Assembly (NCBI GenBank): GCA_030264375.1
Contig: JASCQW010000001.1
Span: forward strand, 112,953,528 to 113,017,527
Direction of reading: 5' to 3'
DNA: 64,000 nucleotides
From: Carcharhinus longimanus
Lineage: Eukaryota
Shown: piece by piece, positions 1-63,511 of the stretch
Position numbering within the stretch: position 1 is the stretch's first letter
Layout of the letters: each line of letters begins with the position of its first letter
Position numbers and translations under genes: made by a program
Notes under the pieces: model-generated
Told to the model about the DNA's origin: nothing
What the model saw: the letters and a program-made list of their open reading frames with translations, nothing else
The model's database searches: none

Positions 1-1790
1 GACAGAACTTACAGAAAACCAATTGGACAAAATACAGTGAATATCTCAACAATTCCACTATGAAGCAGCACAGTTAATGAAGCATGCAACAATGATGCCA
101 TCTACAAAGCAGCCTGCACAGGAATTCCCCGAGGCTACCAACCCATCTACATCCCATGCTTAGATACAGAGGGCTGCCCTTCTGAAAACATTTGAAGCAT
201 CAGGAGACCCAGAGTTGGAGACCATCTGATGACTCTCTCAATGCCACACTCTGCACCAAGGGGGAGGAAATTGCAGCAGAGCTAAACTTCACATACTCCA
301 ACAGGAAATGCTCAGTCTAACCTATTGCTTGGAGCAACCCAAAAGCTACCCACTCAAAACTGCTCCTCAGTTACTCCCAGCCATGTCTCCAGTTAGGAAA
401 AATTGAAGACTGGTGCTGTGTTCCTTGACTTCACAGCCACCCACAATAAGGTTTGGCACACTGGCCTCCTCCTGAAGTTATCATGGGCCCTCCCCTGCCC
501 AGGTGACTAAAAGCATCAGAACACTGTTGAACAAAGATTCAGAGTTCACCTTGACTGCCAAAAAGTATGTGGAAAAGACAAACCAATGGACTTCCCCAAG
601 AAATAACCTGCCTAAAAATAACTCCTGAAAATTCATACATGCCAATGACATCTGCCTCACAGCTCAAGTCCCCTGACTTTGACACTTTGGATTGGACCCT
701 AAATGAGGACTTGTCAAAACTTGAACAATGCTGTGACACATGGAAAATCAAGCTAAACCCTGCAAAGACAAAGACAGTGTCCAGCTTATTCATTCTTCAC
801 AATGCAAAAGCCAATAAAGAACTCAACATCAAAATGAATGGCTACAGGTTAAATCACCACCCAACTCCAACGTACTTCACCCTAGATAGGACACTGACCT
901 TCCAGGAACAAAATCAAGCATATCTACTGAGCCTATTTGGTCAAAATTGACACACAGTTGACACCCAGCTGATCGCTACCATGAATATCACCACTAGAAT
1001 ACTACGATCAACACCATATCCTTGGCTCCATCTTGGCATACATCACTCCTCCGCATTCCATTGACTTGCAACAACCCACAAAATGATAGAAAAAATTTGC
1101 AATGCCCCCCACCTACCACTTCATGCCGATTTATTTAGCCCACCCAAGGTACAACTCCCAAAAAGGCTGATCTGCAAAAAAAACCTTCCACACAGGACTT
1201 CCTGGACAATAAATGGGAATCATTGGATACTTGGTCTCAAATCCAACTCAACAGCTGCCTGGTTTCAAACTTCCAAGGAAAGAACGGTCTACCCTCAATA
1301 GGTTCAGGACCAACTACGGCCCCTGCTTGGCCAAACTCCACAGATGGGGTATTAATGCCAGCCCCCTCTATACATGCATCAACGATGTGGAGATGCCGGC
1401 GTTGGACTGGGGTAAATACAGTAAGAAGTCTCACAACACCAGGTTAAAGTCCAACCAGTTNNNNNNNNNNNNNNNNNNNNNNNNNNNNNNNNNNNNNNNN
1501 NNNNNNNNNNNNNNNNNNNNNNNNNNNNNNNNNNNNNNNNNNNNNNNNNNNNNNNNNNNNNNNNNNNNNNNNNNNNNNNNNNNNNNNNNNNNNNNNNNNN
1601 NNNNNNNNNNNNNNNNNGACTTTAACCTGGTGTTGCGAGACTTCTTACTGTGCCTGTGTCAACAACAGACTATGCACCGTGTCAAAGAAGAGGGCCCAAT
1701 CCACAGAATTAGTGGAATCCTTTCCACACACTCAATCAAAAGAAACTACTTGGCTTAGGGGCTTAGTGTTTGTGAATTATTTAATATGTC
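1..1790 (+). mobile_element. Decayed non-LTR retrotransposon ORF2 (RT and C-terminal region), Daphne/L2-group-like
   Basis: Frameshifted RT fragments: WKIKLNPAKTKTVSSLFILHNAKANKELNIKMNG..PTYFTLDRTLTF (ORF 567-950) and PGFKLPRKERSTLNRFRTNYGPCLAKLHRWG..QQTMH (ORF 1213-1758). The clade assignment is from recalled motifs and is tentative. Confidence 0.75.
1384..1652 (-). mobile_element. Penelope-derived fold-back mini-element (family 1), nested in the LINE; centre is an N gap
   Basis: GATGTGGAGATGCCGGCGTTGGACTGGGGTAAATACAGTAAGAAGTCTCACAACACCAGGTTAAAGTCC on the left; the inverted arm GACTTTAACCTGGTGTTGCGAGACTTCTTACTG on the right. Confidence 0.85.
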
Positions 1791-4700
1791 AGAAAAAAGT
1801 TGCAATTATATATTACATTCAGCATAGCAAATCCTCCCCAAGTGCTCAATTCACAGATGCAGTAAACAAAATTTGACTGCAAGTCACAGAAAGAGACGTT
1901 AGGATAGGTGGTCAAAAGTTTGGCTAAAGAAGTAGGTTTTAACTTTTTAAGAGTAAGGTAGAACTTAAAGGCTGAGGCAGCTGAACGCACACCTACGAAT
2001 AAGTAGCATGATAAAAGTTGAGATGTGGAAGAGGCATGTCTGCAATCTTCCCAGTTCTTGGAGACAATTTTGGAGGTGTGGGAAATGTGGATAATTGTAC
2101 ATCAGATCAGTCCCTGATCCATTCCCACCTCCATGTGTTTTCAGCAGGGATGAGCAGTAACTGGGGAGACTTAGAGTGATTACAACACCAAGTATTGTGA
2201 ATTTATCCATTGCAACAAAATCCTAAAAATGACCATGAGTTCACTGCCAAGTCTGTCCCTCAGCAGATGAGGGAATGTTGATTCACAGAAGTCAGTGCTG
2301 AATCGTTCACTGGCAGAAAATGGTGAGGCTGCTGNNNNNNNNNNNNNNNNNNNNNNNNNNNNNNNNNNTCTCCATGATTCTATTAGTCACATCATTTGCT
2401 CCATAGACACAACTGACTGCTGCAGTGCCTACCCTGCACTGCATCAGCCTGACCACCACCAGCAGTACTCCTACAGATGTCAGTGGGGATTACCAGACTC
2501 TACTGGAATGTGACATCCCACGCTTGCACCTCCAGAATGCACCCATCATCTGCAACTGGATAGCAAAAACAGAGGCAGTTTCTTAATAGGCCAGGTCCAA
2601 GAAGGTTTCCCACCAGTGCACATCCCACAAGCAGGGTTACAACCCCTCAATTTTCCAAAGCAGGAAAATTACAGGAAATGTGCCCTCTAAGCTGCATGAC
2701 TGCCCAACTGAACAACAACTTGAAAAATCCCAGTGCAGGCCAATAGCAAGTTAATCCCTTTAAATCTCTGCTGTATTTGGACTGCACTGCCAAACAATGA
2801 GACAAATCAGAAAGAATGGGGGGTTGAGAGACATAGTGATGAGACAGAGTTGAGTCGTCGACATACATGTGCAACATGATATCTTTTCAGATGATGTTGC
2901 TAAGAGCAGTATGTAAATATCAAATGGCAGGGAACCAAGAATAGATCCTTTGGGGAAGCAGAGGTTGCAGCGTGGTAGTAAGAGATTTTGATCTGATGGA
3001 GGGATTCAAACCAGTCCCAGCAGCTAGAATTATGCATTTTGCTAGACATTGATGCATGCTTCATAGGTTTGCATTCACAATAAGTAGCTTGCTCATGCTA
3101 AATCTCCATAACATTAAGGAGATCAAGTTTGAAAGTTTAGTTAGCAATGCGTTTTCATCATGCAATGTAATCTTTTGAGGTAACACAGTAGAACAAGAAA
3201 ACTTGGGCTAACACTAATGAAAGGACAACTTAAAATAGATGTCAAGAGGAATTATTTTATGCAGAGTCAATGGTCTTGTAACTAGAATGGAGATGAGAAT
3301 GTTAGATTCACTGAAAATACAATAAGACAAGACCCATCACTGTTGTTAAAAATGCCACATGTTGTAGAACTGACCGCTGGGATTTCAAATTCTCTAGTTA
3401 ATACATTTAGAGGGAGATAGTTGGGGTGGGGATGGTTAGATGGGATTATTTTTCCTATGAGCAAAGATAAATCAAGTCATCTTTCATGTCCATGTTTCTT
3501 GGAGGATCTTATCAATTGGAGACTACTCCATTATTAGCCTCAGAAAAGTACATTCAAAATTTCAGACTTTGCTTCATGGAGATCAATGAGGGAATCATTT
3601 AAAAAAAAACTTGTTGGGAAGAGTTTAGAAACCCAGCCTTTGAAAATAAGATTGCAGAAATCCTGCGTCCCAATGATTCCCCAATCTCCTACTATAGCTT
3701 TGATATAAGTTCAGTGGAAAGCTCAAAATGATTTATGGAAATTACTGTGTTTTTGGGGTTTCCACTGATCATCCACAAAATTGCAGTGGGAAATTGGAAA
3801 ACTCAGTGGTAATTGTATCCCAATGATTATGAGTTTCAAAACATTTGCATAGTTAACAAGATGTTAGTAAAATCTCCAAACTTTGTTCAAACCACATCAT
3901 GTAGATTAGGTCACTTGTATCATTTATTTACAGATAATCAAATCATTGTGTTTTGTAAAAATCCCCACAACCTCATCATTCAACAGGAGAGTGACACCTA
4001 CTTAGTAAAAGTGACTATCAATATACCCGCAGGTCTTTCCAAATTGGCTGCTGACAGATATTAGAAATCCATCTCCTGTGCAATGGTTGTGGGGTATTCA
4101 AGGATTAGAACTTCTGTTTCTAAATTGCTTTAAATTGGTTCTGAAGTTTCAAGACACAATGCTGTTGTTAAAAATGCCCAACATTGTAGAATTAACAGCT
4201 GGGATTTCAATTTCTCCAGTTAACACCAACTACAAATCCCTTGTGCTTTTTTTAAAAACACGGTTATTAATCTATTATATGTTGGTATCAGGTCTCCAGC
4301 GAAATACATCACAAAAAAAAATATATGTTTCACAGGAGGTGAAGGTGGCCGGGGGAAGATGACGCTGAACAGAAATCAAGAGATGACTGAATGACTGATG
4401 AAGCATCAGTTTAAAGAGGTAATTGAAAATGAGAACAATGTAAGTAACGGGAAAAGGAATTGATTCACTTTGTTCATACTGCAGTTTACCAGTAAAAGAT
4501 ATGGACAGAAGAATTCATAATAAAAAAGTGAATTTTCAACTTTTAAGCAAATAGGATATTGTGGGGTGAACCTAAAAAGACCAGGAAACCCAGAAGTAGA
4601 GCACACACATGTCCTGATGAATTTAACCACAGGATCTTGTCTGATTTTTTTTTGCTGCTTCTCAGCAAGTAGTTGGTCAACTGAGATTGGCTGGTTGGCT

Positions 4701-6207
4701 CAGGTAAGTAGTGCTGTACTCGAAAGCCACCACCAAAACCAGAAAGAAGGGAGAAATTAGGGAAAAGACTGGGGGAGGAGGGGGGGGGGGTTAAAATCAC
4801 AGGTCAGCTTGGAGATTATAGAGGGTTAGGGTGGAGAGGAGCATCAGACTAAAGTGGAGTTGCTGGATGTCACGGAGGGAGGCTAATCATGCAAGAGAAG
4901 TGAGGGGGAGGGGCAAAAGAGATAAGGAAGCATTCTTGCTCCTCCTGGTCCACAAGCAGTGACAGTAAAACATTTACTTGCTGGAATCAGCAGTTTTTGC
5001 CTCTCCAGCTGGCTTGCGGCAGTTAAATCTAAATGGTTACTAAAAATCGGAGGAACACAGCCTCATTAATATATTTAAAATGATTGAACTGCCTCTCGAG
5101 AGCAGGTCACTTACTCAACATTAACCACTCTATATAAAGCAGAAGTATGTGTTTTCATGATGGGTTTTGGATTTTTAAGCATTTAACCACATCCACAGTG
5201 GGGTGGTATTGAAATTCCATCTATTATGTTTTATGCCTCTGCAAAGATTATGCTCAACTGAAGAAGATAAACAAAAAAATTTCTTAAAAAGCAAGGCCTG
5301 CCACTGTATATATCATTGCAAAATGAACAGATTAAAAGTTGCCAACTGAATTCCCAGAATAAAGACAATTGTAGTGTTGGAAAATTCTGTTTATAAATAG
5401 AGTAATGACATAACCTACATATTTGTGATCCAATTTCCATTGCGGGTGATTTTATCTTTAGAATCAATAACAAAAAAATGACATTCAGCTTCAGTACAAA
5501 TGCCAAATTTACTTCTGCAACTGCACCTCACACAAAAGAATGGAATTGTTTTAACATTTTGACCCGTAACATATTCGGAGTGGCAATCAGCGGCTGTCAC
5601 TCTATTGCGACTCTTCTGTATCAAACACAGACAGCAACCATCTTTTCTGACCTTCCTGACTTGGGCAGAGTGGAACTGAAGAAGCTTTAAAGCAGGCGAG
5701 TTTAAAGGGAGAAGTTAAGTGAACAGGATGTGGGAGTTTGGACATCAGCAACATGGATCCAGGGTGTACAATGCAAGACACAGTCTGGGTGTTTATAACA
5801 GTTAGAAATGCTTTAATTCCAAATATTTCAGAGTAATTAGGTGTGTACAACTGGCAGAACCATCTGAAGTTATTGATTTAAAATCGTTTTGTTGGATAGT
5901 TCCCAGCACAGTGCAATTACCTTTGGAAGTTAGCCTTTATGTAACCCTCTGCGGGAACTTCCAAGGAGGAATTCCCCAATATATCTTTGGGGTATTCCAA
6001 AATCAGCACTGGAGAGCAAGGAAGTTATGGCCCATTGTTACCCAATGCTACTGTCTACTGACAAGATTGTGCTGGGAAACATTACTCCATTGCACAGAGT
6101 GTAATTCTCAGTTATTTTGTGATTCTTGAGCCAAATTTTAGGGAATTTGTCTATCAAAACTAAGTAAATGTAAATAGTTTGATTACTGTCACTCACTCTT
6201 TACTATA

Positions 6208-7400
6208 CCCAGCAACAACTTGCATTCATATAACAGTTTCAGTAAAATAAAACCTTCCAAGGTGCTTAACAGGAGCATTGTAAGCCAAAATAAGGCAATG
6301 GGGCATGTGGAAAAATCACGTGTCCATGAGAAGATAGAGAGGTTGAGGGTTTTAGGGAGTTAGCATTTGCGAATTAATTTAAATCATGGAATCCATGAGG
6401 CCAAAATTTAAGTAGTGCAGATAGCCTGTTGGATTGTGGGACTGGAGAGGGATGACACCATACAGCAATTTGCAAACAAAAATGAGAATATTAAAATTGA
6501 ACTGTTGCTTAACTGGGAACTAATGAAGGTCAGTGAGCACAAGGGTTGATTAGTATACAAGGACTTAGTGCAGGTTAAGACACGAGCAGCAGAGCTTGAA
6601 AAATCTTAAGCTTATGTGGAGTAAAACATCAAACAGCAGCCAAAATGTTTGGAGAAATGGATGAGGGTTTCAGCAGATCAGTTGAGCAAATCTGAATCAT
6701 GCTACAGATAAATACACAATTTTAGTGATAATGTGAATATGTGGCCACAAAACTATCTCAGAGATTTGACACAGTGGTTAAGCTTCAGAGTTGCCAGGAA
6801 GAGGGATGGAGTCGAAGGATAGGGAAAGGAGTTTTTGCTCAGGAGCTGAAGACAATAACTTCAGTCTTCACAATATCTATTTGGAAAAATGTCTTCTTAT
6901 TCAGTTTTGGATGTCTGACAAGCTGTTCAACAATTTAAAGACATTGGAAGAGTCTAAAACAGTGGTGATCACGTAGGACGTATTTTTGTGACTTTATAAG
7001 CACCATTTTGATACACTGACAGGACTGAAACCTAATTGGAAGGATTCAAACATGGAACATTGGGAAATATGAACATGAAATTGAGAGCCATCAACATGCT
7101 CAAAGAGTTTGGGGATGGGATCAAGATTTTTTTTGAGAAGAGGAATGATGTTGACAGGTTTGAAGGAGAAGCAGACAGTGCCCGAGGAGACTATACTGTT
7201 GTCAATATCAATTAGGATGGGAGCCAGTAAGGGTAACCAAGTGGTCAACAGCTTGGTCAAAATAGGACAAAGGAAGCAGGGCATGAATCTCATGGACAAG
7301 TGGAGCATGTAGAGGGTAAGAGGAAATAACAGAGAAAGAGAAAGGTGCAAGTTTAAGGTAAGTGCAGGGTTTTCTGGAAAAACTTAGAGGATATTTGACC
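6208..7400 (-). mobile_element. Decayed L2-type LINE, 3' portion
   Basis: L2-like 3' end CAACAACTTGCATT..TTCCAAGGTGCTTAACAGG. Minus-strand RT remnant ILIDIDNSIVSSGTVCFSFKPVNIIPLLKKNLDP..FESFQLGF (ORF 6994-7350). Confidence 0.65.
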
Positions 7401-9558
7401 TGGAGGATAACCAAAGGGAGAGATGTGGCAGAGGCAGCTAGTCTCCATCTTAAAATGACAAAGACACTCATAAGCATCCAACAGAAGTATCCATCTTTCA
7501 TTCAGATATGACAGATGACAAATGCTACAAGACGAAAAGCAGAAAGTGACATTGGCTACAATTCTGTACTGTCCCATTAACATACAATTTTATTACAGAT
7601 CCAATATTTTCATGGTGAATCATTAGAAAGCCACATTTAACTGCTCTATTTACTGAAGGAGAAGTGGTTAACCCAGATTGCACTGAATCAATTTTATCTG
7701 AAGTTCAGGGTTCAGTGAAATTTAGGACAACGCACAAGACAGGGTAGTAATAAGTATGCTGAAAACAGGCTTGGATGAACGACAATTTCCTCCAGTTAAA
7801 AACTAACAATACCAAAGCCATATCTACAACTTCTGATAAACTTTTCAGCCTCACCACTGATTTCATCATTGTGGCTCATTACATAAATGATGATTGATTG
7901 GCCCAGGTACTACTGTAACCAGACCACAAAGGATTCTACATCCTTGAGAGAAGGAAAACAAAAAAAAATTCAGGAAATGAGTGAAAAATAAAACAAACAT
8001 GTACTTTTGAATTTCATTTTACTTTAACAGTACCAAAGGTAATGAACCATACAGCTTTGTGCGTTAATGCTCCAGAATTATTTTTTAAATCCATCTTTGC
8101 AATCTTCTGCACTGAAGACATTCATTCTGACACTTCCACAGGCAGTCAGTATTCCAGTGTCCAGCAAAGGGTCAATTCTTAATGCTCTCTCCCAGGTATC
8201 AAATACTAGCATCATAGTCAACTACTGGGTGCATTACAACCAAGTGCAGTTCTGAACTTACAGGAGTCAGGCTCACTTTTTCCTTACCATAGGCCAGAAA
8301 TATTGATGTTCTCAATGCTCCTAGCTGCCTGAAATTCAGAAGCTCTTCTGCACAGATCAGCTTGGATGGGATGAATAGCTTCCCTCATCAGTATGGCTCT
8401 TATGATCACAACACAGATCAGGAATAGAACCTGGCATCTTTGGTATTTACATGTGTCTCCATTCCAGGTAGCAAATTACCAATTGAATCATCACAGAAAA
8501 TTGAAATAAATGAGAAGCACCACTTCTATATAGCTAAATTAATACAAATATGATTACTAGAATAGTTATATAATGTGCAAACATTTCTCATGACAGTTTA
8601 CTGGAAGTGTTTCATATAAAGCATAAAAAGAAAGGTCATTTCCTCATCTTTTAGAAACATGGCATTAAAAGTGAAAAAACCCATAAACACTTGCATATAA
8701 ATTTGTGCTAAAGTTGACCTCATCGCNNNNNNNNNNNNNNNNNNNNNNNNNNNNNNNNNNNNNNNNNNNNNNNNNNNNNNNNNNNNNNNNNNNNNNNNNN
8801 NNNNNNNNNNNNNNNNNNNNNNNNNNCGCCTATATTTAAGGAATGGAAAAATCAGAATGGGTAACTTCTGGTGAAAAGAACCTTTAAAATTTCAAACTGA
8901 ATCCAATTCATGGTACCCACAAGTGATACAGATAAGATTCAAGCTGACAAGGCATCCCATCTTGGGCATGACCTAACGCTTCACCTTAGCCAAAAAGATC
9001 AAAATGGCTTTGAAAAATCCTCAGGTGACACCTTGGTTAAACTTCATCAGCTAACCCTGATTATTGATCTCACAAGCTAGGGTAGAGTCAAAAGGAACGT
9101 ATGAGCTATATTTCCTTTCCCACTATGAATAGTTGAATGTAGCTGACTCTTGAGACCAAGCATTTCATTACCATCAAGTGACTGACCAGCCTGACTGTTG
9201 TAATGTGCCACACCTGACCAAAACTATGGCTTAAATCTCCAAGGAGAAAGTATTTTCTTTTAAATCATGTGAATCCCATACCAAAGAGTTTGTTCCAAGC
9301 ATCTATGATAGACCAATGGATTAATCCAACATCAGCAGCACAGGTCCTGAATGGTTATCTTCCTGTCTGCAATAAATTTCAACCCCCACCTAGGACTACC
9401 AGGTCTGTATGGCTATCATGTTTATTAAGCTACCTGGATGCAAACTTATGGTTTTATTCTTTGAACCTGGATTGATTTCCCTTCATATCACCCACTGTTC
9501 CTCACCCAATAAAGCAACCACATAACCTACCCTCATATTTTTGGTAGCATTATACATA

Positions 9559-9746
9559 GTAAGAAGTCTCACAACACCAGGTTAGAGTCCAACAGGTTTA
9601 TTTGGTAATAAATGCCATTAGCTTTCGGAGCGCTGCTCCTTCATCAGGTGAGTGGCTCACTACCAAATAAACCCGTTGGAATTTAACCTGGTGTTGAGAG
9701 ACTTCTTACTGTGTTTACCCCAGTCCAACGCCGACATCTCCACATC
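9559..9746 (+). mobile_element. Penelope-derived fold-back mini-element (family 1) with 13-bp TSD
   Basis: Inverted arm 9559-9653, followed by an internally deleted direct arm ending CCCCAGTCCAACGCCGACATCTCCACATC. AGCATTATACATA is duplicated at 9546-9558 and 9747-9759. Confidence 0.9.
9614..9653 (-). ncRNA. Minimal type-I hammerhead ribozyme motif (PLE-type)
   Basis: Minus strand ACUCAC-CUGAUGA-A-GGAGC-AGC-GCUCC-GAAA-GC-UA-AUGGC. Core intact, 5-bp stem II, palindromic AGCU in place of stem III. The first stem-I pair is mismatched. Confidence 0.65.
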
Positions 9747-11248
9747 AGCATTATACATAAGCAGGTTAGAACACAGTGAATTGGAGCATTTTGGTTATTT
9801 ACCTTCCAAACTTAGGCAGCATATTAAAACATTATAAAAACATTGCACAGGGAACTGTGCAACTGAGATGCATTGTCAAGCTGCCTTCTTCTTTCAAATG
9901 ACGGGGTGAGATGGATAAATGGAGGTTTGTATGGAGCATTACTATCAGAACAATCGAGCCAATGGTCAGTTTCTGAGCTGTACTTCTACATGAATACATC
10001 AATTATCCACTTATTCTGTAGCTTACACACGCAGTTTTTAAGTGTCACATCAACTGTGTGTGTTTACTCTTTGATGGACAATGAATTAATATATTATGTT
10101 GGGCACTGGGCCACCCAGACTAGGAAAGTGTCATGTTCAACGAGTGAAGGCACTTTCATGACTTCAGTGTTCTATGCTGGAAGAGAACATCATGTTGGGG
10201 AACGATGGAGTACCTAATACTTGAATAGCCCAACAAAGCTTACATGTGAAAAGTGGACTTTTGACTGATTTTGGGTGACTGGTATCTAGAATCATAATTT
10301 TGCCTAATCTAGTGGCTTTAGGAAAGGCAGAAAGAAAATTAAAAGTAAACATTTTCCTGACACACTTGAACAGATTTTAGAGGTGTAAGCGGTTATGACT
10401 GAAAGAGCTGACTAATAAAATTTGCATCCTGACTCCAATTTAAAACTGCATCCCATTGAACTCTTTATTCACAACAAAGTGCTTGGTGCTCATGATCACT
10501 CAATCTTCATCCCTGCTTCCTCAGAAGTTTTCAACAAATATAACAAAGATTCAATTCCATTTTTCAACTGTGCAATGCTTAGAAAACTCTTGTTGCCAGA
10601 GTGCCATTTACAGGGAAAAGGTGGGTCAGACAAAGCCACTTTTACACAAACCCTCTTAAAATCAGAGTTTAGTAGGATATCGCAAATAAAAGATAACTAA
10701 GTAACTCCCAAAAAACAGAACTGAAGTGTCCAAATGTTTTTTTTCACTTTATTAGAATAAATGTTAAGGTAAATAAAACCAACATCTAATGAGCATTCAT
10801 GCAAATAATGTGTCAACAAGATACACCCATTCACCTACAAACTAAACACATAAATTGCACTGCTTCAATTAGAGTTCGCCACAGAAATGTTTGACATTAA
10901 AAAAGGGATAAGTACTAATTTAAAGTAATTATTTTTAAAAACTTTTTCTCTTGCCAACTTTATCTACCGTTGGAAGCTTGCTTCCAGCACTTACAGTGCA
11001 AGGCTTGGTCACTTTTTATTTCCATTGTCAGCATCAAACACTCTTAATGGGATTCCAATTTTCTACATGAGCTATCAGTACCACCTTTTACTATTCACTT
11101 ATGGAGAATCATATTTAAGTGTCAAAATTAGGAGGCTTTCACTCCCATCCATTTAGGTTTTGATGTAATTCTAGCTCTGCTTATGAAAATTTTAATGGAT
11201 GAAAAATCTTGAAGTATACACTAATTTCCAAGTGTTAGTCATGGGCAA

Positions 11249-12065: not shown

Positions 12066-13309
12066 GATTATGATTGTTCATCTTCATTGTTAAGTGTTCA
12101 GGTTCTTCTAATTTGAAGAACACCTTTCACTAAAGTAGATTCCATTTCACAATTCCAGCTGAAAAAAAATCTCAAATCACTTGTATTACCATCTTTTCAG
12201 ACAATACATAGCAGCATTGCATTAATTGAAATGAGACTGCTTAATATACACATCTTTCAACAATGACCCCATGGATTTGAAAACCAACCAACAAATACTG
12301 CTGGCATCAAAAAACATTGCAACGCTGATGTTGAATTAAGATAGTTCCAACCATTGAAGAGAGGATCCTGTTGCAGAGTCGCTCATTACTTTAAAGACCT
12401 TTATGGGATTTTATTGACTTTCAAAAGAATGTTGTTCCAGATTTGTTTTCAGACTTTTCCATTTAATGCTGAAATTGCTCCAAGTTTACTGAGCTAGTTA
12501 CAAAATTAACCCATGAAAAATCTGGTGGATTCATTTAAGTTTGTGTTGTCCTTCCTGATCACCAATTTTTTTCAACTTAATACTGTAGGTACAGGATTAG
12601 GAAAATCTACCCCTATAAAAAGCTTTATGAAGACAGAACCAAAACTTAACACAAGCATTTTCAATGTCAAGTATGACAGATTTTGAGTGGTACTTTTGAC
12701 TTATTGGCAAAATTCCTCTATTCTCAACAAAATGAGCTTGCATTGTTTGTCACTTGTGACACCGTGGAGCTATTTTTAAACAGCTAGAAGTGTTCTGTTG
12801 GGCAGCAGTTATTACATGAGAAATAAACAATGTTGAAAGATTGAAGTATGGGAGAAACTAATTAATCCAAAAGGTATTCTAAATCAACCAAATAATTTGA
12901 CCATGACATTGCACAGAAACCATAAACTAACCCAAAAGGAAAAACAAGTAAAACTTGGGAAATGGTTGGAACTGGTCCAAACTTATCTTCTATACTTTAA
13001 AATGGAACTACAGTTTGGGCCAGTACCAGTCATTTCTCAAGCTTCACTGGTTTTTCCTTCTAGAACATATTCCTCGTTGTTTGTAAACCTAGCTGATAAT
13101 CAATAGAAAATATGACCACAGAAGTATCAGGCATCTGACTCTTGCAGTATACGCAATGGTGTGTGGCTGTCATGAAGGAAGAGTTCAGCATGAGGATGAG
13201 AATAAACCTCCATAATATATAAAAGCAAGGTTTGTACTAACAGCCATTACATGTATGAATACACAAATATTTCATAATAAAAGAATCATTTATACTTCCA
13301 ATAAGGCAA

Positions 13310-20721: not shown

Positions 20722-22195
20722 CAGAGACTTGGGTACTGAATCTCAATAAAGGAAGCTACGAGGATATGAGGCGTGAGTTGGTCTTGATAGATTGGGGGGA
20801 GTTATTCAAGGGCTGACAGTGCATAGGCAATGGCAAACATTCAAGGAACGCATGGGGGAACTGCAGCAGCTATTTATTCCTGTCTGACACAAAAGCAAAA
20901 GGGTAAGAGAGCCAATCCATGGCTTACAAAGGAAATTAGACAGAGCATCTGATTCAAGGAAGGGGCGTACAGATTGGCCAAGAAAAATAATAGGTCTGAG
21001 GATTGGGACCAGTTTAGAATTCAGCAAAGAATGACCAAGGAATTGATTAAGAAGGGGAAAGTACAGCACAAAAGTAAGCTTACAGGGAATATAGAGATAG
21101 ACACTGAGTTTCTATAGGTACGTGAAGGAAAAGAGGTTGGTGAAAACAAATGTCTTCTATCCCTATGGATAGAAAATAGGGCATAAAAAATGGCCATGCA
21201 ACTGAATACATACTTTCATTCTGTCCTCACAGAGGTCACAAATCAGATACCAGAAAAATTGGAGAATGCAAGATTTAGTGAGAGAGAAGAACTGAGGGAA
21301 ATCAATATTAGTAGAGAAATGGTGCTGGGAAAGTTGATGGGATTGAAGGTAGANNNNNNNNNNTAGAAATAGTGGATGCATTGGTGGTCATCCTCCAGGA
21401 TTCTACAGACTCTGGACCAGTCCCTGCAGATTGGAGGGTAGCGAATATCACTCCAATATTCAAAAAGGGGGGTAGAGAGAAAACAGAATTATAGACCAGT
21501 AAGCATAACATCGGTAGTGGGGAAAATTCTTGATTCCATTACCAAGGACATTATAGCAGAACATTTAGAAAGCAGTGGCAGGATCAGACAGAGTCAGCAT
21601 GGATTTATGAAAGGGAAATCACGTTTGACAAATCTGTTGGAAGATGTGGCTAGTATAACTAGTAGAGTTGACAAAGGAGAATCAGTAGATGTGGAATATT
21701 TGGACTTTCAGAAAGCGTTTGACAAAGTTGCGCATAAGAGATTTTTGTGCAAGATTAAAGCGCGTGGGATTGGGGGGAGTGCATTAAGACTGATAAAAAA
21801 AACTTGTTGGCAAAGAGGAAACAAAGAGTAGGAATTAATGGGTCCTTTTCAAATTGCAGACAATAATGAGTGTGGTGCCACAAGGATCAGTGCTGGGACC
21901 CCAGCTATTGACAATATATATTAATGATTTGGATGAGTGAACAAAATGTAACTTTTCAAAGTTTGCAGATGATACCAAGTTGAGTGGGAGGGTGAACTGT
22001 GATGCGGATGCAGAAATCCTTCAGCATGATCTGGATAGGTTGGGTGAGTGGGCAAATCAATGGCAACTGCAGTATAATTTGGATAATGTGAGGTTATTCA
22101 TTTTGGAAGCAAGGACAAGAAGGCAGATTACTATCTGAATGCTATAATTGGGAGAGGGGAGTGTGTAGTGGGACGTGGGTGTCCTTGTGCACCAT
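20722..22195 (+). mobile_element. CR1-clade LINE ORF2 (RT) pseudogene
   Basis: GKILDSITKDIIAEHLE..QSQHGFMKGKSRLTNLLE..YLDFQKAFDKVAHKR, then GTGCCACAAGGATCAGTGCTGGGACC (VPQGSVLGP) and AAGTTTGCAGATGATACCAAG (KFADDTK). Multiple stops and frameshifts. Confidence 0.92.
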
Positions 22196-22563: not shown

Positions 22564-23525
22564 AGAATTCATAAGCAGAGCAAATGAAACATTGAACACA
22601 AGTCAGGTGAGGAAGTATGCACAGTTCTGGTAAGACTGCAACTGGAATTCTCCATCAGTTCTCCAGCCCAGGAATAAGAGAGGCATTTAAAACTCAGCAG
22701 AGATGAACCCAGGGTTCTGAATGTGGAGGGACTGGAGCAATCTGGGAGGAGGGTTCTGACAGTTGTCATTATTGAGATGTCAGAGTGTTAAGAGTCAACA
22801 AAAACATTTCCCCAGAATATGATTTTAACTAGAATTACAGGACAGGGGCTAGGGAGGCAGGTTCATATCAGTTAAAGATAAATTTGGAATGGATATTGGG
22901 AATTCCAGAGAGAGCTCCCTGAAATTGGAAACTACATATGGGACTGTCTGAATGGATGGATTTATGGGGTTTGAAGTGTTATTTCTGGTGATGTTTAACA
23001 CTTTACTTTCTGCCTGCTCAGCACAGAGGAATCAGAAATTCATCCTCAGTCTCCCCAGCTGAGTGTCAGCTCTGTTTCATTCATCAGAGGGTTGCCAACT
23101 CGGCCTAGCTCTCCATCCAGACTGGGTGTAACTTTACTCCCACTGTTCACTCTCTTGAACTCTTTGACCTGGGAATGCCTCACACTGACACGAGAGGAGG
23201 TGGGAGGAGGAATTATATCCCATCTGGGGTAAACTGACAGGGTGGAATTATCTGACTGGATCACATCCCACCCTTTCCATCAGCCCCTGCTCAGCAAGTT
23301 GTTAAAATGATTCCTGTTTGTCTGAAATGGGAAATTGCTATATTCCTTGACTGTTAACATTCCCCATCTCAAGAAGCAAAAGGTCACTGGGAAGAATTTT
23401 TTCACAATACCTTTCAGTGTTTTTCTGTCCCTTCAATAAACGCACTGTTGAACTGGTGAAGATTCTCTCAAAGTGAACAAGGTACTCATTTGTTGTGTTT
23501 TGTCGCCATCCCCTGCCCACACTAT

Positions 23526-23761
23526 GGAACAGTAAGAAGTCTCACAACACCAGGTTAAAGTCCAACAGTTTATTTGGTAGCAAATGCCACTAGCTTTCGG
23601 AGTTCTGCCCCTTCGTCAGGTGAGTAGACTCACTCACCTGATGAAGGGGCAGAGCCCTAAAAGCTAGTGGTGTTTGCTACCAAGTAAACCTGTTGGACTT
23701 TAATCTGGTGTTATGAGACTTCTTACTGTGTTTACCCCAGTCCAACGTCGGCATCTCCACA
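23526..23761 (+). mobile_element. Penelope-derived fold-back mini-element (family 1), the most complete copy
   Basis: ~95-bp inverted arms (23530-23625 and 23632-23728), a 6-bp spacer and a ~33-nt unpaired tail. CCACACTAT occurs at 23517-23525 and 23757-23765. Confidence 0.9.
23586..23625 (-). ncRNA. Minimal type-I hammerhead ribozyme motif (PLE-type)
   Basis: Minus strand UCAC-CUGACGA-A-GGGGC-AGA-ACUCC-GAAA-GC-UA-GUGG. Core intact and stem I (UCAC/GUGG) intact. The mirror copy on + (23632-23671) has GAAA mutated to AAAA. Confidence 0.7.
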
Positions 23762-24721
23762 CTATTATCCATGTGCCAGCTCTTTGATAGAGCCAACCAT
23801 TTTTCAACAAAATATTGCATATTGCGTATTACATTTGTGGCACACTTGCTAATTATTGAAAAAACATCTCCCCAGTTGCACCCATCCTTCCCCCTGCCAT
23901 CACCCAGTACTACCATTGACACAGTAGAAGTAGAGGTGAATCTTGCCTCAGTTCTCCATTATCAGAAAAGGCTATTTTACATTATTTTACCATCCATCAT
24001 AGCTAGAAAAAAGGTTTATTTTAAAATTAAATTAGATGTCTCATTATGGAATAACTAGAGGGATAAGCTTCAAATAATAATAAGTGGACTTTTTTGGTCC
24101 CTTCTAATTTTTCTGAAAATAAATAAGCCAACAAATACAACTGCAAACTTTAAGTATTTCCCCTCATTAATAATATAGTTTGAGGATGAGAAATTTCCTG
24201 TGAGCTCTGACAATTTGCTCTAGTGACAGGAGTTATCAAATTTCAGATTTCAAGTAGTTGGAAATTGAACGTCCAGCCATTTGATGAACAGAACTCAACC
24301 CCTAGGTACTCAAGTTTCAGGTTTTAGTTTTACACCAAAAAAAAGACAAAAAGACTTCTGTGTTTTGAGTTGGATATGGGATTTTTACCAATATGCGCAA
24401 AGTGAATCTTCTGTTATTGGTACAATCTTATCAAATTAAGTTCTTGCCACATTTTTGGTTAAAAGGTTTGTGAAAAAAATAATTGCCATACTAGGCAACC
24501 AGATTCTGGTGTTTTATCCAAGTCTCTATGGCTACTCAGTACACCATTGCAAAGAAGACTATTAAGTGACTGGAACCAACATGGAGAACACATGAAAATA
24601 GTTCTGTCAATCTTAGTTAAAAGGATAAAAATAATCCAATACAATTTACTGAAAAGCTGGAAAATTAAATAAATAAGCGCAAAAGGTAGTTATTTATCAC
24701 TGATTTTCCTCTCTCATAGGG

Positions 24722-39010: not shown

Positions 39011-40247
39011 ATACTTTGACGGAGTGGAAAAAAGGTTAATCAGATTGGTTCCTGGAATAAAAAGAAAGGATTGAGTAGATGAGTTGGAGGATGAATTCCC
39101 CTACTCTAGAGTCTAGATCACAGGGTAACAGTCTCAGAAAAAAGGGGCTGGTTATTTCAGACTGAGATGAAGAGAAACCTCTTCATTTATAGGGTTGTAA
39201 ATTTTTGGAATTCTGTATCCTAAGGGCTTTGTAGGCTCAATTGTTGAGTGTATTCAATTCAGAAGAAAATAATACCAAGTGACATGGGGATGTGGTGGTG
39301 GCTGAAGAGTGGGGGTGGTGGGTAAACAGGCAGGAAGGGAGTAAAGTCAAGGTAGAAGGTCAACAATGCTCTAATTCAATGATTGAGCAGGCCTGAAGGT
39401 TAGAATAGTTAATCCTGCTCTTATTCTCTTACCTTCTTATGTGTTCTCATCACTGCTTTGGCCTTCCTTCTCCATCACTGATTGTAGTCTGGACCCTTTT
39501 CTCGCCACTTAACTTTAATGTCAAGACTGCTTACATTAGCTTCCCAGTCCCAGCCTCCTGCAGCACAAAATCCTGCTCCTTGGCATCGTTATCAGTATTG
39601 GGCAGGAGTACATTCTGGAAGATGGCGATGAGGCCTAGCAATTAAAATGACCCAGAACTCATACCAGTACAATCATGGGCACTACTGCCCACCTAGGTTT
39701 CCGCATGCTGGACTCACACCATAGTAAAAATTGGAATTAAGTATCAAGTCTACTCAACTCTCATATTACCCAGTGGGTGTTCAGTTATTTTAATGGTGTC
39801 AAAGAATGGAGTTGATTTAATGTTCCAGGGTAACTGGCTTCTGTTTGCTCATATTAATAAGAACACAATTAAAAAATAAATATTTCAGACACTACACAGA
39901 TTGTTTCACTTTAAAGATTTAAATTTAAAAGATATGTGATGCCAAGTATATAATCATTACAGAAATCAAAGTGTGATACTTTCCAACAGATTTAGCTTCA
40001 AGGATTGCAAGCAAATTTAAGGAATAGGGTCAAAGATATCACATTTATCATCTAGAAGCAGAGAAAATGGATGTTGCAATCTGACAAGTTTTTTACACAT
40101 GAAGAATACCCAAGGAAATAATAACTTGCTTGAGGTTAGATATTATCCCCTTGTCAAGAAAATGGAGACCAGTGTCTTTGAGGCACTAACTGCGCCATGG
40201 ACTTTGAGAATAGAAAGAGTTTGCTGACATCCATGGACAGGGACACT

Positions 40248-40463
40248 GTAAGAAGTCTCACAACACAGGTTAAAATCCAACAAGTTTATTTGGTAGAAAA
40301 GCCACGAGCTTTCGGGCCTCTGACCCTTCGACAGGTGAGTGACGAACAGTAAGAGGCCTGAAAGCTAGCGGCTTTTGCTACCAAATAAACCTGTTGGACT
40401 TTAACTTGATGTTGTGAGACTTCTCACTATGTTTACCCCAGTCCAATGCCGACATCTCCACAT
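40248..40463 (+). mobile_element. Penelope-derived fold-back mini-element (family 1) with ~11-bp TSD
   Basis: Inverted arms plus tail CCCCAGTCCAATGCCGACATCTCCACAT. CAGGGACACTG at 40238-40248 vs CAGGGACTCTG at 40464-40474. Confidence 0.88.
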
Positions 40464-40960
40464 CAGGGACTCTGCAGCCAGGAGATGTGAATTGGGACAG
40501 CTGCAAAGATCACATGGCAGATTTGCTGTAATCCTTTCCTCCTATTGCTACTTGTAAAAGAAAGACTGTAGTGAACCAGTTTTCTCAGCACTGTTTATTA
40601 TCATCAATTTTCAGCACAACACAGTTTCTATTCTGAAACACTTGCTGATTACAAGTGCAACTTAGTACTGACGTCACTGGAAAGACTACATATCTATCAA
40701 TAAGTGAAGTGCAAAAAAAATTGGCTATATCCTCATGATCATAAGATAATACGAAATAGGAACAGGAACACTATGTAACCCCTCGAGTTTGCTCTGCCAT
40801 TCAATAAGGTTCAACTGCCAGGACATCTGGATCCCTCTGTAGAGCAGATTTCTGCAGTTTCCATTAAAGATTTTTTTCTATTCTTCAGAATATACAAATA
40901 TTTCAAACCTCATGATATAAGAACAAAAAACCCTGGAAGTGTTCAGCAGGCCAGACCTTA

Positions 40961-43947: not shown

Positions 43948-44203
43948 AGAGCTCCCAGCCACCTGATGAAGGGACAGGCTGTCCCGAAAGCTTGCGGCTT
44001 TTGCTACAAATAAACCTGTTTGGACTTTNNNNNNNNNNNNNNNNNNNNNNNNNNNNNNNNNNNNNNNNNNNNNNNNNNNNNNNNNNNNNNNNNNNNNNNN
44101 NNNNNNNNNNNNNNNNNNNNNNNNNNNNCTGTTTGGACTTTAAACTGGTGTTGTGGGATTTCTTTCTGTTTTACCCCAGTCCAACGCCGGCATCTCCACA
44201 TCA
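43948..44203 (+). mobile_element. Penelope-derived mini-element (family 1) with 8-bp TSD
   Basis: Direct arm plus tail ...CCCCAGTCCAACGCCGGCATCTCCACATCA. AAACAAAG at 43940-43947 and 44204-44211. The empty site is visible in the inverted duplicate at ~50322-50335. Confidence 0.88.
43958..43998 (+). ncRNA. Minimal type-I hammerhead ribozyme motif (PLE-type)
   Basis: GCCAC-CUGAUGA-A-GGGACA-GGC-UGUCCC-GAAA-GC-UU-GCGGC. Core intact, perfect 6-bp stem II, stem I with one mismatch. Confidence 0.68.
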
Positions 44204-47170: not shown

Positions 47171-47325
47171 AATAGGCTTACATTAATGCTGCAATGAAGT
47201 TACTGTGAAAATCCCCTATTTGCCATTCTCCAGCACCTGTTCAGGTACACTGAGGGGGAATTTAGCATGGCCAATGCACCTAACCAGCATGTCTTTTGGA
47301 CTGTGGGAGGAAACTGGATCACCAT

Positions 47326-47653
47326 CGGCACGGTGACATAGTGATTAGCACTGCTGCCTCACAGCGCCAGGGACCTGGGTTCGATTCCCCGCTTGAGTCA
47401 TTGTCTGTGTGTAATTTGCATGTTCTCCCTGCGTCTGCGTGGGTTTCTTCCGGGTGCTCCGGTTTTCTCCCACACTCCAAAGATGTGCAGGTTAGGTTGA
47501 TTGGCCATGCTTAATTGTCACTTAATGTCAGGGGGACTGACAGGGTAAATACATGGGGTCATGGGGATAGGGCCGGGAAGGATTGTGGGCATTGACTATT
47601 TGATGGGCCAAATGGCCTCTTTCTGCACTGTAGGGATTCCATGGTTCTATGGT
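47326..47653 (+). mobile_element. HE1-like V-SINE, tail type A
   Basis: Well-preserved head CGGCACGGTGACATAGTGATTAGCACTGCTGCCTCACAGCGCCAGGGACCTGGGTTCGATTCC; TCACC on both flanks. Confidence 0.9.
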
Positions 47654-48814
47654 TCACCCAGAGGGGAACCCCACGTAGACACAGGGAGAAAGTGCAGACT
47701 CCACACAGACAGTGACCCAAGCTAGGAATTGAACCTGGGTCCCGACACTGCAACGCAGCAGTGCTAAGCACTATGTCACCATGCACAAAAAAGAGCATTC
47801 GAGAACCGGCTGACCATTCAAAACCATGGCAGGCTTGTTTCAGGTGGACTCTCCAAGGTCAAGGAGCTCACTAAAATTATTCAAATTGTCCCAACATCAG
47901 AAAATATTCCAGGTCAGTGACATCTGAGCAGGAGACCACATGTAACGTTATCTATTTGCAGTGGCACAGGAACTTTTCAAGAATGTGCTCAGCAGATAGT
48001 TTTGTCAGAGTTTATCATGATAGACCGCGCTCCTACATTATGTAAAGGGTGCTCAATGAACAAGAAAGGCAATTTGGGGTTGAGCAACAGCTGTCTGTCC
48101 AACACGATATTACAAGGTCATGTGTGTACTGGAGAATTGCCTTGGGTGAAAACACGGCAACAAAGTAGAGCATGGGGCAAAAAGTGAATAATTGAACATC
48201 GCAAAGCTTGCAGATCAGATTTCTGGAAAAATCACTGAAGTTGCAGAAAAATTAAATGCTTTACGATCCAAATCTGTGGGGCTAATTTTTAATAGCTTGT
48301 GCAATGCCAGCAGGCATCATTCTTCCAGGTCATATGAATCAACGTGGAGCCTGTAGTATTTTTGTGGTTGGGCTTACTTATATTAAATTCACCTAGTTAC
48401 CAAAGGGAAAACACGGCCTCAGAAGACAGCCAATTGATCTGGGGAGAGGGAAATCCAGCAGAATGAATGATTATGAAGGTACTGCAGAAGTTCCTTGATG
48501 GGAAGTGATGAAATAGAATATTACTGGCAGCACCAGTTCTGAGCAGCTGCCAAACCTTTGGCAGCACTACAGCAATAAAGGCATTAATCAAGGAAGTCTT
48601 TAAAATCCATGTGGCAGTAATGTGAGAAAGTAAAACATTTCTGCACAGATTTTCCTTAGTGCATCCCAAGGTCCTTTTAATTGTACTCCAAATGGCCTCC
48701 TCCTGACTGCTACTTTTCCTGCTTGGTGCTCAAGATCAGCAACTGACAATACATCAGTGGTCAGAGATCCAAAAAGCACTAGAGATGATAACTATGTAAT
48801 CTGATCAAAACAAT

Positions 48815-62645: not shown

Positions 62646-62811
62646 TCTATTCTCGGGGATAACCTAGGGGATTTTCATAGTAACTTCACTACAGTGTTAT
62701 TGTAAGCCTACTTGTGACTAATAAATAAAACAAATACATTTTCTGAAATAAAACATAGCAGGAAGGAGCTGCTAACTGAGATTTATCATTTGTCCTGCGA
62801 GTATTTATTAT

Positions 62812-63120
62812 TAAAGTTTATTTAATCTTAGTGTCACAAGCAGGTTTACATTAACACTGCAATAAAGTGACTGTGAAAATCCCCTAATTGCCACACTCTG
62901 GCACCTGTTCAGGTACACAGAGGGAGAATTTTGCATGCCCAATGCACCTAACCAGCATGTCTTTCAATCTATGGTAGGAAACTGGAGCATGTGGAGGAAA
63001 CATATGCAGACACAGGGAGAACGTGCAGACTCTGCATAGACAGTGACCCAAGCTAGGAATGGAGCCTGGGTCCCTGGCGCTGTAAGGCAGCAGCGCTAAC
63101 CACTGTGTCAGTGTGCTGCC
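62812..63120 (-). mobile_element. HE1-like V-SINE, tail type B
   Basis: AAAGTTTATTT..GTCACAAGCAGGTTTACATTAACACTGCAAT..GGGTCCCTGGCGCTGTAAGGCAGCAGCGCTAACCACTGTGTC. An isolated + strand B tail lies at 62662-62730. Confidence 0.88.
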
Positions 63121-63190
63121 CATCACTGTGCTAATCCTACACCGGAGTTTATATGACCCTGTCTTGAGACAGGACACAAGCTGATCATGA

Positions 63191-63511
63191 GGACAGCACA
63201 GTAGCACAGTGATTAGCACTGTTGCCTCACAGCGCCAGGGACCCAGGTTCAATTCCAGCCTCGGATCACTGTCTGTGTGGAGTTTGCACATTCTCCTTGT
63301 GTCTGTGTGGGTTTCCTCTGGGTGCTCTGGTTTCCTCCCACAGTCCAAAGATATGTAGATTAGGTTGATTGGTCGTGCCAAATTATCCCTAGTGTCAGGA
63401 CGATTAGCAGAGTAAACGTGGGAGATTGCAGGAATAGAGCTTGGGTGGGGATTGTGGTTGGTGCAGACTTGATGGGCTGAATGGTCTCCTTCTGCACTGT
63501 AGGATTCTATG
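63191..63511 (+). mobile_element. HE1-like V-SINE, tail type A
   Basis: CAGCACAGTAGCACAGTGATTAGCACTGTTGCCTCACAGCGCCAGGGACCCAGGTTCAATTCC head; CTTCTGCACTGTAGGATTCTATGA tail. Confidence 0.9.

What the first reader, a model, noticed from the sequence alone, without database searches (positions are those of the whole stretch)
23517..23765. Family of small Penelope-derived fold-back elements carrying hammerhead ribozymes with covarying stem II
Seen: six copies in 64 kb (1384, 9559, 23526, 40248, 43948, 53016). The typical layout is an inverted arm, a direct arm and a ~33-nt unpaired tail, with 8-13-bp TSDs where readable and no ORF. Each readable full arm begins CAC-CUGANGA-A-[stem II]-GAAA-GC-UH-GUGG. 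Stem II differs between copies yet stays paired: GGAGC/GCUCC (9.6 kb), GGGGC/GCCCU (23.65 kb), GGGUC/GGCCC (40.3 kb), GGGACA/UGUCCC (43.97 kb). H is A, C or U, never G. Established: Penelope-like elements carry minimal type-I hammerheads with a palindromic stub in place of stem III, thought to act as dimers, and they form inverted pseudo-LTRs with a short tail. An extra A after A9 is known from a natural viroid hammerhead. Inference: an abundant non-autonomous ribozyme-bearing retroelement with several subfamilies under structural selection. Whether this shark family has been described needs a database check.
Basis: partly seen in the sequence, partly recalled or inferred. Interest (0 to 1): 0.72.

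Follow-up and report, generated by a model that had tools for sequence, protein, structure and literature searches.

The report
Penelope retroelement end-fragments with known hammerheads
These mirror-image inserts are broken-off ends of an abundant jumping gene of a known class (Penelope-like) that carry its already described tiny self-cutting RNA motif; they are not a separate element family, but many begin at one base with an extra G, which likely marks the capped start of the element's RNA.

Summary
The six copies are real, but only four are fold-backs, and no readable window arm matches the stated pattern with both stems perfect. The arm is the pseudo-LTR of an about 3-kb Penelope-like element (RT, CX4CxxC linker, GIY-YIG-type endonuclease; likely Neptune). 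Its 5' ends vary and 54 of 55 inversion junctions differ, so it is not a discrete non-autonomous family. The hammerhead is the published minimal type, including the extra base after A9 (Cervera and De la Pena 2014); 24,396 core-intact motifs occur genome-wide. Stem II covaries between subfamilies (pairs 2-4) while the core stays fixed, and single copies decay by CpG loss: selection acted on source elements. Inverted arm, 30-40-nt tail and TSDs (63 of 111, mostly 12-14 bp) are known PLE traits. The fresh point: arms pile up at an A six bases before the core, preceded by a non-template G (18 of 19 loci), 29 nt after a TATA-like box, as expected for copies of capped, uncut RNA. No excess at the cut site (18 of 61 against 27%). 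The scan noted this system before in at least 17 genomes.

The parts
23517..23525 (+). Left target-site duplication CCACACTAT (9 bp), followed by 3 filler bases (23526-23528)
23529..23625 (-). Inverted, tail-less pseudo-LTR arm; ends at about the inferred transcription start
23587..23622 (-). Minimal hammerhead in the inverted arm; core intact, stem II 4 bp with one G-U pair
23632..23761 (+). Direct pseudo-LTR arm, from the inferred start A (23632) to the 3' end just before the position of the ORF's ATG in long copies
23635..23670 (+). Minimal hammerhead in the direct arm; G12 mutated to A at 23659, so predicted inactive
23730..23761 (+). 32-nt PLE tail, present on the direct arm only
23757..23765 (+). 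Right target-site duplication, overlapping the element's last 5 bases
1386..1654 (-). Fold-back copy, tail on the left; hammerheads inside an N gap
9546..9759 (+). Fold-back copy with 13-bp TSD (9546-9558, 9747-9759); hammerhead core on the minus strand at 9623-9647; direct arm truncated 3' of the hammerhead
40238..40470 (+). Fold-back copy with short TSD (40238-40244, 40464-40470); inverted-arm hammerhead has A6 to U
43953..44202 (+). Single direct arm (not a fold-back) split by an N gap; core 43963-43989 intact, 6-bp stem II
53011..53245 (-). Single tail-less arm that reaches into the element's 3' UTR beyond an N gap; hammerhead in the gap

Best explanation
The fold-backs are independently made, 5'-truncated and inverted insertions of the pseudo-LTR of an autonomous, likely Neptune-clade Penelope-like retrotransposon, whose known minimal hammerhead was likely kept foldable by selection in the source elements and decays in the copies. 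Shown: the arm sits after the stop codon and before the ATG of an RT-endonuclease ORF; junctions are not shared; TSDs are mostly 12-14 bp; 3' ends fall at two sites about 33 nt apart. Inferred mechanism: the element's protein nicks both target strands 12-14 nt apart; each nick primes reverse transcription inside the RNA near the pseudo-LTR/ORF junction (one at the tail end, one about 33 nt upstream); the two cDNAs grow toward each other, stop early or run off the capped 5' end of an uncut transcript that starts six bases before the hammerhead core, and are joined head-to-head. The ribozyme is predicted to cut only as a dimer or with protein help, in transcripts of full-length elements, and is not needed for insertion.
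For: Arms extend upstream by variable lengths into a GIY-YIG-type C-terminus, a CX4CxxC linker and RT (Pfam RVT_1 E 3.6e-06). In L087 the arm precedes the ORF ATG; L087, L099 and L088 overlap at 84-86% and L088 runs on into the arm. 114 scorable tail-anchored arms have 5' ends from -412 to +93; 65 have an adjacent inversion, 49 do not; 54 of 55 junction pairs differ. Stem-II pairs 2, 3, 4 paired in 137, 138, 117 of 144 against permuted means 131.7, 118.8, 96.4; stem types cluster on a tree built without stem II (19 changes against 38.1 shuffled). 0 of 12 non-CpG core, stub and A9.1 columns carry a second allele of 8% or more, against 20 of 41 upstream and 6 of 10 stem/loop columns. G12 to A in 42 of 114 arms after C and 0 of 35 after T; G8 to A in 21 of 66 against 2 of 69. 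Start-site signal: hazard 0.033 per nt at -10 to -1 against 0.005-0.016 from 0 to +79; 3,822 genome matches with a non-C base before the start A, first 100 by hand count G60 T24 A16; 18 of 19 G loci have unrelated sequence upstream. Passages read: two internal RT start sites, both-strand priming, hammerhead dispensable in vitro (PMC11167929); inverted copy, 30-40-bp tail, 5' truncation (PMC8557442); TATA-Inr in the pLTR (PMC3846280).
Against: No intact pLTR-ORF-pLTR copy was recovered in one locus; two candidates were separate insertions. Pfam RT scores are below the curated cut-off and the endonuclease piece had no Pfam hit. The tree is weak (5 of 67 branches starred), permutation tests ignore relatedness, and the covariation rests on about 4-5 lineage events. 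Pair 4 has 19 A-C mismatches in 144; pairs 1, 5, 6 are not above permutation. 5' ends are mapped to about 3 nt. The extra G is sometimes explainable by microhomology with the inverted arm or by the TSD (for example L301, L320, L303); a milder G excess is also seen two bases downstream (55:45), and the control one base upstream is confounded by a subfamily with a templated G (7 of 16 G loci). No RNA start or cleavage data.
Confidence: 0.87

Rival explanations
1. A distinct non-autonomous fold-back element family that is itself transcribed and copied.
For: Short copies far outnumber long ones; 65 of 114 arms have an adjacent inversion; many arms start near one position; the two arms of one insertion are more alike than random pairs (0.78 against 0.67, 59 pairs).
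Against: 54 of 55 junctions differ; arms that start at the hammerhead lack the upstream TATA-like box; a transcript through the focal copy folds into one long hairpin (-165 kcal/mol) that buries the ribozyme; subfamily variants are shared with ORF-bearing copies.
Confidence: 0.06
2. Non-LTR retrozymes that spread through self-cleaved circular RNA.
For: Same hammerhead type; retrozymes are reported to derive from PLE pLTRs and occur in one sampled chondrichthyan (bioRxiv 2026.07.22.740005).
Against: Retrozymes are tandem arrays; among neighbouring arm pairs with two hammerheads 40 are head-to-head, 4 tandem, 3 tail-to-tail. Copies begin upstream of the core, not at the cut site.
Confidence: 0.04
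3. The hairpin is kept as a protein-binding, promoter or RT-pausing structure rather than a catalyst, and the pile-up of 5' ends reflects RT stalling with non-templated addition.
For: Stem I is only 3-4 bp, single motifs do not fold better than shuffles, no cut-site footprint; published minimal hammerheads cut weakly or only with protein.
Against: Across subfamilies the variable positions are those a hammerhead tolerates (N7, H17, stem II and loop) and the catalytic core and palindromic stub are fixed. This rival concerns function only and is compatible with the PLE-remnant origin.
Confidence: 0.15

Closest known systems
Minimal hammerheads (min-HHR) in pLTRs of metazoan PLEs (Cervera and De la Pena 2014, PMC4209133; abstract, Results and Discussion read)
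   Same: Core boxes, extra base between 9 and 10.1, G10.1-C11.1, palindromic 15.2-16.2, thousands of mostly single copies, opposite-strand pairs 100-700 bp apart, families with compensatory changes.
   Different: Stem II is 4-6 bp and stem I 3-4 bp (7-8 and 4-5 in their Schistosoma families); cartilaginous fish are not named in the sections read; 24,396 core-intact motifs against 4,000-9,000 in coelacanth and Xenopus. Their supplement was not seen.
EN+ PLE insertion architecture (Adineta Pen2a, PMC3846280; PLE overview, PMC8557442; passages read)
   Same: 5' truncation, head-to-head inverted pLTR, 30-40-bp tail on one arm, TSD, TATA-Inr in the pLTR, CX2-5CxxC linker of Neptune/Nematis.
   Different: TSD mostly 12-14 bp against 8-10; the 3' end stops within about 9 nt of the ATG rather than 12-22 codons into the ORF.
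Poseidon_Ac (PAc) of Anolis (Frangieh et al. 2024, PMC11167929; first half of the text read)
   Same: Two internal RT start sites bounding the tail, both strands primed, uncut RNA as template, no ends at the hammerhead cut site.
   Different: In PAc the ORF starts within stem II and RT starts 111-118 nt into the ORF; here the hammerhead is about 125 nt upstream of the ATG, at the inferred RNA 5' end.
Non-LTR retrozymes (Li et al., bioRxiv 10.64898/2026.07.22.740005; parts 1 and 3 of 5 and passages read)
   Same: Non-coding, type-I hammerhead, PLE pLTR-derived.
   Different: Defined as tandem repeats with at least two hammerhead units; these copies are single or head-to-head.

Membership tests
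Endonuclease-containing PLE (Neptune type) | RT ORF linked to the repeat | tested here: met
   YIDD-type RT and DKG motif in loci that overlap into the arm; Pfam RVT_1 E 3.6e-06 but below the curated cut-off
Endonuclease-containing PLE (Neptune type) | C-terminal GIY-YIG endonuclease | tested here: inconclusive
   VYLI..WYIGET-type motif read by eye at the ORF end; no Pfam hit; Atlas look-up unavailable
Endonuclease-containing PLE (Neptune type) | CX2-5CxxC linker between RT and EN | tested here: met
   CX4CxxC in L077, L078, L079; definition from PMC8557442; shared with Nematis
Endonuclease-containing PLE (Neptune type) | pLTR at both ORF ends, inverted copy, 30-40-bp tail, TSD | tested here: met
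   pieced from overlapping loci, no single complete copy
Endonuclease-containing PLE (Neptune type) | RT phylogeny within the Neptune clade | not tested
   no reference PLE proteins were fetched
PLE minimal hammerhead | Conserved core with extra base after A9 and palindromic 15.2-16.2 | tested here: met
   A9.1 in 152 of 156, G15.2 and C16.2 in 142 of 155
PLE minimal hammerhead | Stem II with compensatory changes, stem I present | tested here: met
   few independent events; stem I 3-4 bp
PLE minimal hammerhead | Self-cleavage as dimer or with protein | not testable with these tools
   indirect genomic footprint not found
Non-LTR retrozyme | Tandem units each with a hammerhead | tested here: not met
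   4 tandem against 40 head-to-head two-hammerhead pairs
Discrete non-autonomous element family | Fixed ends and a shared internal structure among copies | tested here: not met
   54 of 55 junction pairs distinct; 5' ends -412 to +93

The most novel reading that the evidence does not exclude
The copies are a genomic record of the element's capped transcription start: the hammerhead occupies the first 40 nt of the mRNA, cap-bearing uncut RNA is the insertion template, and ribozyme cleavage removes the capped leader, acting as a switch against translation or insertion rather than as the step that makes the template; head-to-head fold-backs are two such run-off cDNAs primed from opposite target strands.
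Probability: 0.5. Interest if true: 0.55.

Novelty: new member of a known kind. Interest (0 to 1): 0.3.

Why it matters
As a family it adds a high-copy cartilaginous-fish-type PLE to a known class. Its use is mechanistic: on the order of 100,000 insertions (extrapolated from 14 in 264 kb) give natural statistics on where PLE reverse transcription starts and stops, suggest a start site directly in front of the ribozyme, and offer natural stem-II variants for testing the still unexplained role of PLE hammerheads.

Tried and rejected
Rfam scan: no hammerhead family hit in the window. Folding of single motifs: not better than shuffles (its sixth sequence, from L087, had wrong coordinates and was ignored). 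PDB sequence search with the longest ORF piece: 0 hits. Atlas: not available. Cut-site footprint, suggested by earlier notes on other genomes: of the first 100 of 693 matches, 81 loci were read (18 obvious one-base-shift matches were not fetched, one shared a locus); 21 of 82 rows were set aside as internal indels (2 of them look mis-sorted, which would lower the share); 18 of 61 start at the cut against 27% expected, p 0.38. This covers only the subfamilies matching that pattern and cannot exclude a small excess. Two putative full-length loci were separate short insertions. Sequencing runs: no RNA holder listed on record; the four laid were contigs guessed as RNA and say nothing on starts or cleavage. 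Literature: 'penelope-like + hammerhead + shark' gave 1 review where shark refers to the ribozyme's shape; 'penelope + shark + transposable element + neptune' gave 1 unrelated listing; in the 20 listed of 593 papers, none held both 'penelope' and 'untemplated G'. Dfam and Repbase could not be searched, so a prior name for this family is not excluded; bioRxiv supplements are closed and the 2014 supplement was not read.

Full report
Observation. All six loci are present. The focal copy has a 9-bp TSD (23517-23525, 23757-23765), an inverted arm (23529-23625), a direct arm (23632-23761) and a 32-nt tail. Four of the six are fold-backs; 43.9 kb is one direct arm and 53.0 kb one minus-strand arm that continues into the element's 3' UTR. 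The stem-II sequences are as quoted, but each readable arm departs from the stated pattern: G12 to A in the focal direct arm, A6 to U at 40.3 kb, stem-I mismatches at 9.6 and 43.97 kb, a stem-II mismatch in the focal inverted arm. The loose core pattern is at chance level in the window and Rfam finds no hammerhead, but a tighter core pattern has 24,396 matches in the 2.68-Gb genome against 1 for the reversed control.

Parent element. The best genomic matches to the arm extend upstream by different lengths. Walking upstream gave an ORF end about 215 nt before the core, a GIY-YIG-type C-terminus, a CX4CxxC linker, and an RT with YIDD and DKG motifs (Pfam RVT_1 E 3.6e-06, below cut-off; no Pfam hit for the endonuclease piece). 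In L087 the same arm lies directly before the ORF's ATG, and L087, L099 and L088 overlap at 84-86% through to the 3' arm. The unit is about 3 kb by my addition of these overlaps; no single complete copy was recovered. The linker marks Neptune or Nematis (PMC8557442 passage); only Neptune and Poseidon were reported in vertebrates in the preprint read, hence likely Neptune; no tree was made.

Not a separate family. In 150 loci anchored only on exact tail 26-mers (first 90 of 4,969, 30 of 2,364, 30 of 1,687 matches), 36 had the 5' end in a gap; of 114, 65 had an adjacent inversion and 49 none; 5' ends ran from -412 to +93 relative to C3; 54 of 55 mapped junction pairs were distinct; most inverted arms end at +86 to +99, about 33 nt short of the tail end; the 3' end fades out over the first bases of the ORF start. 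Two pairs of these loci overlap and were not removed. TSDs scored in 63 of 111 against a shuffled mean of 2, mostly 12-14 bp. This is the published PLE insertion pattern. Two-hammerhead neighbours are head-to-head in 40 cases, tandem in 4, unlike retrozymes.

Ribozyme. The motif matches the min-HHR of Cervera and De la Pena, who list the extra base after A9, the G10.1-C11.1 pair, the palindromic stub and families with compensatory changes. In 144 of 157 arms not chosen by likeness to the focal arm (13 dropped for odd lengths), stem-II pairs 2-4 exceed permutation (137, 138, 117 against 131.7, 118.8, 96.4); in-register pairing is 0.91 against 0.61-0.75 when slid; pairs 1, 5, 6 do not exceed it. 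Types such as GGAG/CUCC, GGGG/CCCC, GGAA/UUCC, GAGG/CCUC and GGGU/GCCC cluster on a weakly supported tree built without stem II (70 of 113 rows; 19 changes against 38.1 shuffled), so the signal is about 4-5 lineage events, not many independent ones. Core, stub and A9.1 columns carry no common second allele (0 of 12 non-CpG columns) whereas upstream (20 of 41), stem/loop (6 of 10) and downstream (9 of 57) columns do. Copies decay: 46 of 137 keep an intact core, 22 also both stems; G12 and G8 losses follow CpG context. Selection is therefore inferred for source elements, not for inserts. Read-through RNA of the focal copy would form one long hairpin that hides the motif.

Start-site signal. 5' ends are denser just upstream of the core (0.033 per nt at -10 to -1; 0.005-0.016 from 0 to +79), and 15 of 55 inverted arms end at -15 to -4. 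Where the element continues upstream, the base before the A at -6 is C in 121 of 126. Among 3,822 genome matches with another base there, the first 100 are G60, T24, A16 by hand count, and 18 of 19 G loci have unrelated upstream sequence. G:A is 55:45 at a control two bases downstream (Fisher p 0.0013); the control one base upstream (70:30) is confounded by a subfamily with templated G. A TATATG lies 29 nt before that A. An untemplated 5' G is read as copying of the mRNA cap in L1 (PMC9341517 passages), and pLTR promoters are known. Some Gs may come from microhomology. I reached this reading before consulting earlier notes; several notes on other genomes say the same, which is not independent evidence. 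Two notes claim copies starting at the cut site; I tested this and found no excess (18 of 61 against 27%).

Mechanism. Shown: anatomy, ends, TSDs, covariation pattern, decay. Taken from PAc in vitro work: both strands nicked and extended, two internal RT starts bounding the tail, uncut RNA as template, protein-assisted cleavage. Inferred here: two cDNAs primed 12-14 nt apart grow toward each other from the pLTR/ORF junction, end early or at the cap, and are joined head-to-head; arms of one insertion are usually of one subfamily. Cleavage itself is untested.

Verdict. A real, very abundant but known kind of element: remnants of a PLE with its min-HHR. No paper on this family was found in searches; Dfam and Repbase were not available. 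The scan holds 169 similar notes in at least 17 genomes. Interest 0.3; the capped-start reading would merit about 0.55 if confirmed.

Noticed in passing
window 58109-58216 (-): 5S rRNA-like sequence at 40.4 bits (gathering 38) with an 11-nt deletion; likely a pseudogene or 5S-derived repeat.
   Followed up: no
window 555-1400 around the 1.4-kb copy: The PLE copy interrupts decayed frames that look like the end of another non-LTR retroelement ORF (by eye).
   Followed up: no
window 21442-21831 (+): Decayed RT fragment resembling CR1/L2-type LINEs (recalled motif).
   Followed up: no
window 47247-47784 and 62665-63343: Nested inverted repeats of another abundant short repeat family.
   Followed up: no
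window 12936-13059: 48-nt inverted repeat, MITE-like, with weak miRNA-model hits below gathering score.
   Followed up: no
L327:212, L301:1361, L291:1350: A few head-to-head insertions join arms of two different subfamilies (about 3 of 59 pairs), hinting that two RNA templates can serve one insertion.
   Followed up: partly
L308 junction: The junction holds an inverted copy of about 10 nt of the downstream flank.
   Followed up: no
tail-anchored sample L111-L260: 36 of 150 arms have their 5' end in an assembly gap: these fold-backs break short-read assembly, so long inversions are under-sampled.
   Followed up: partly
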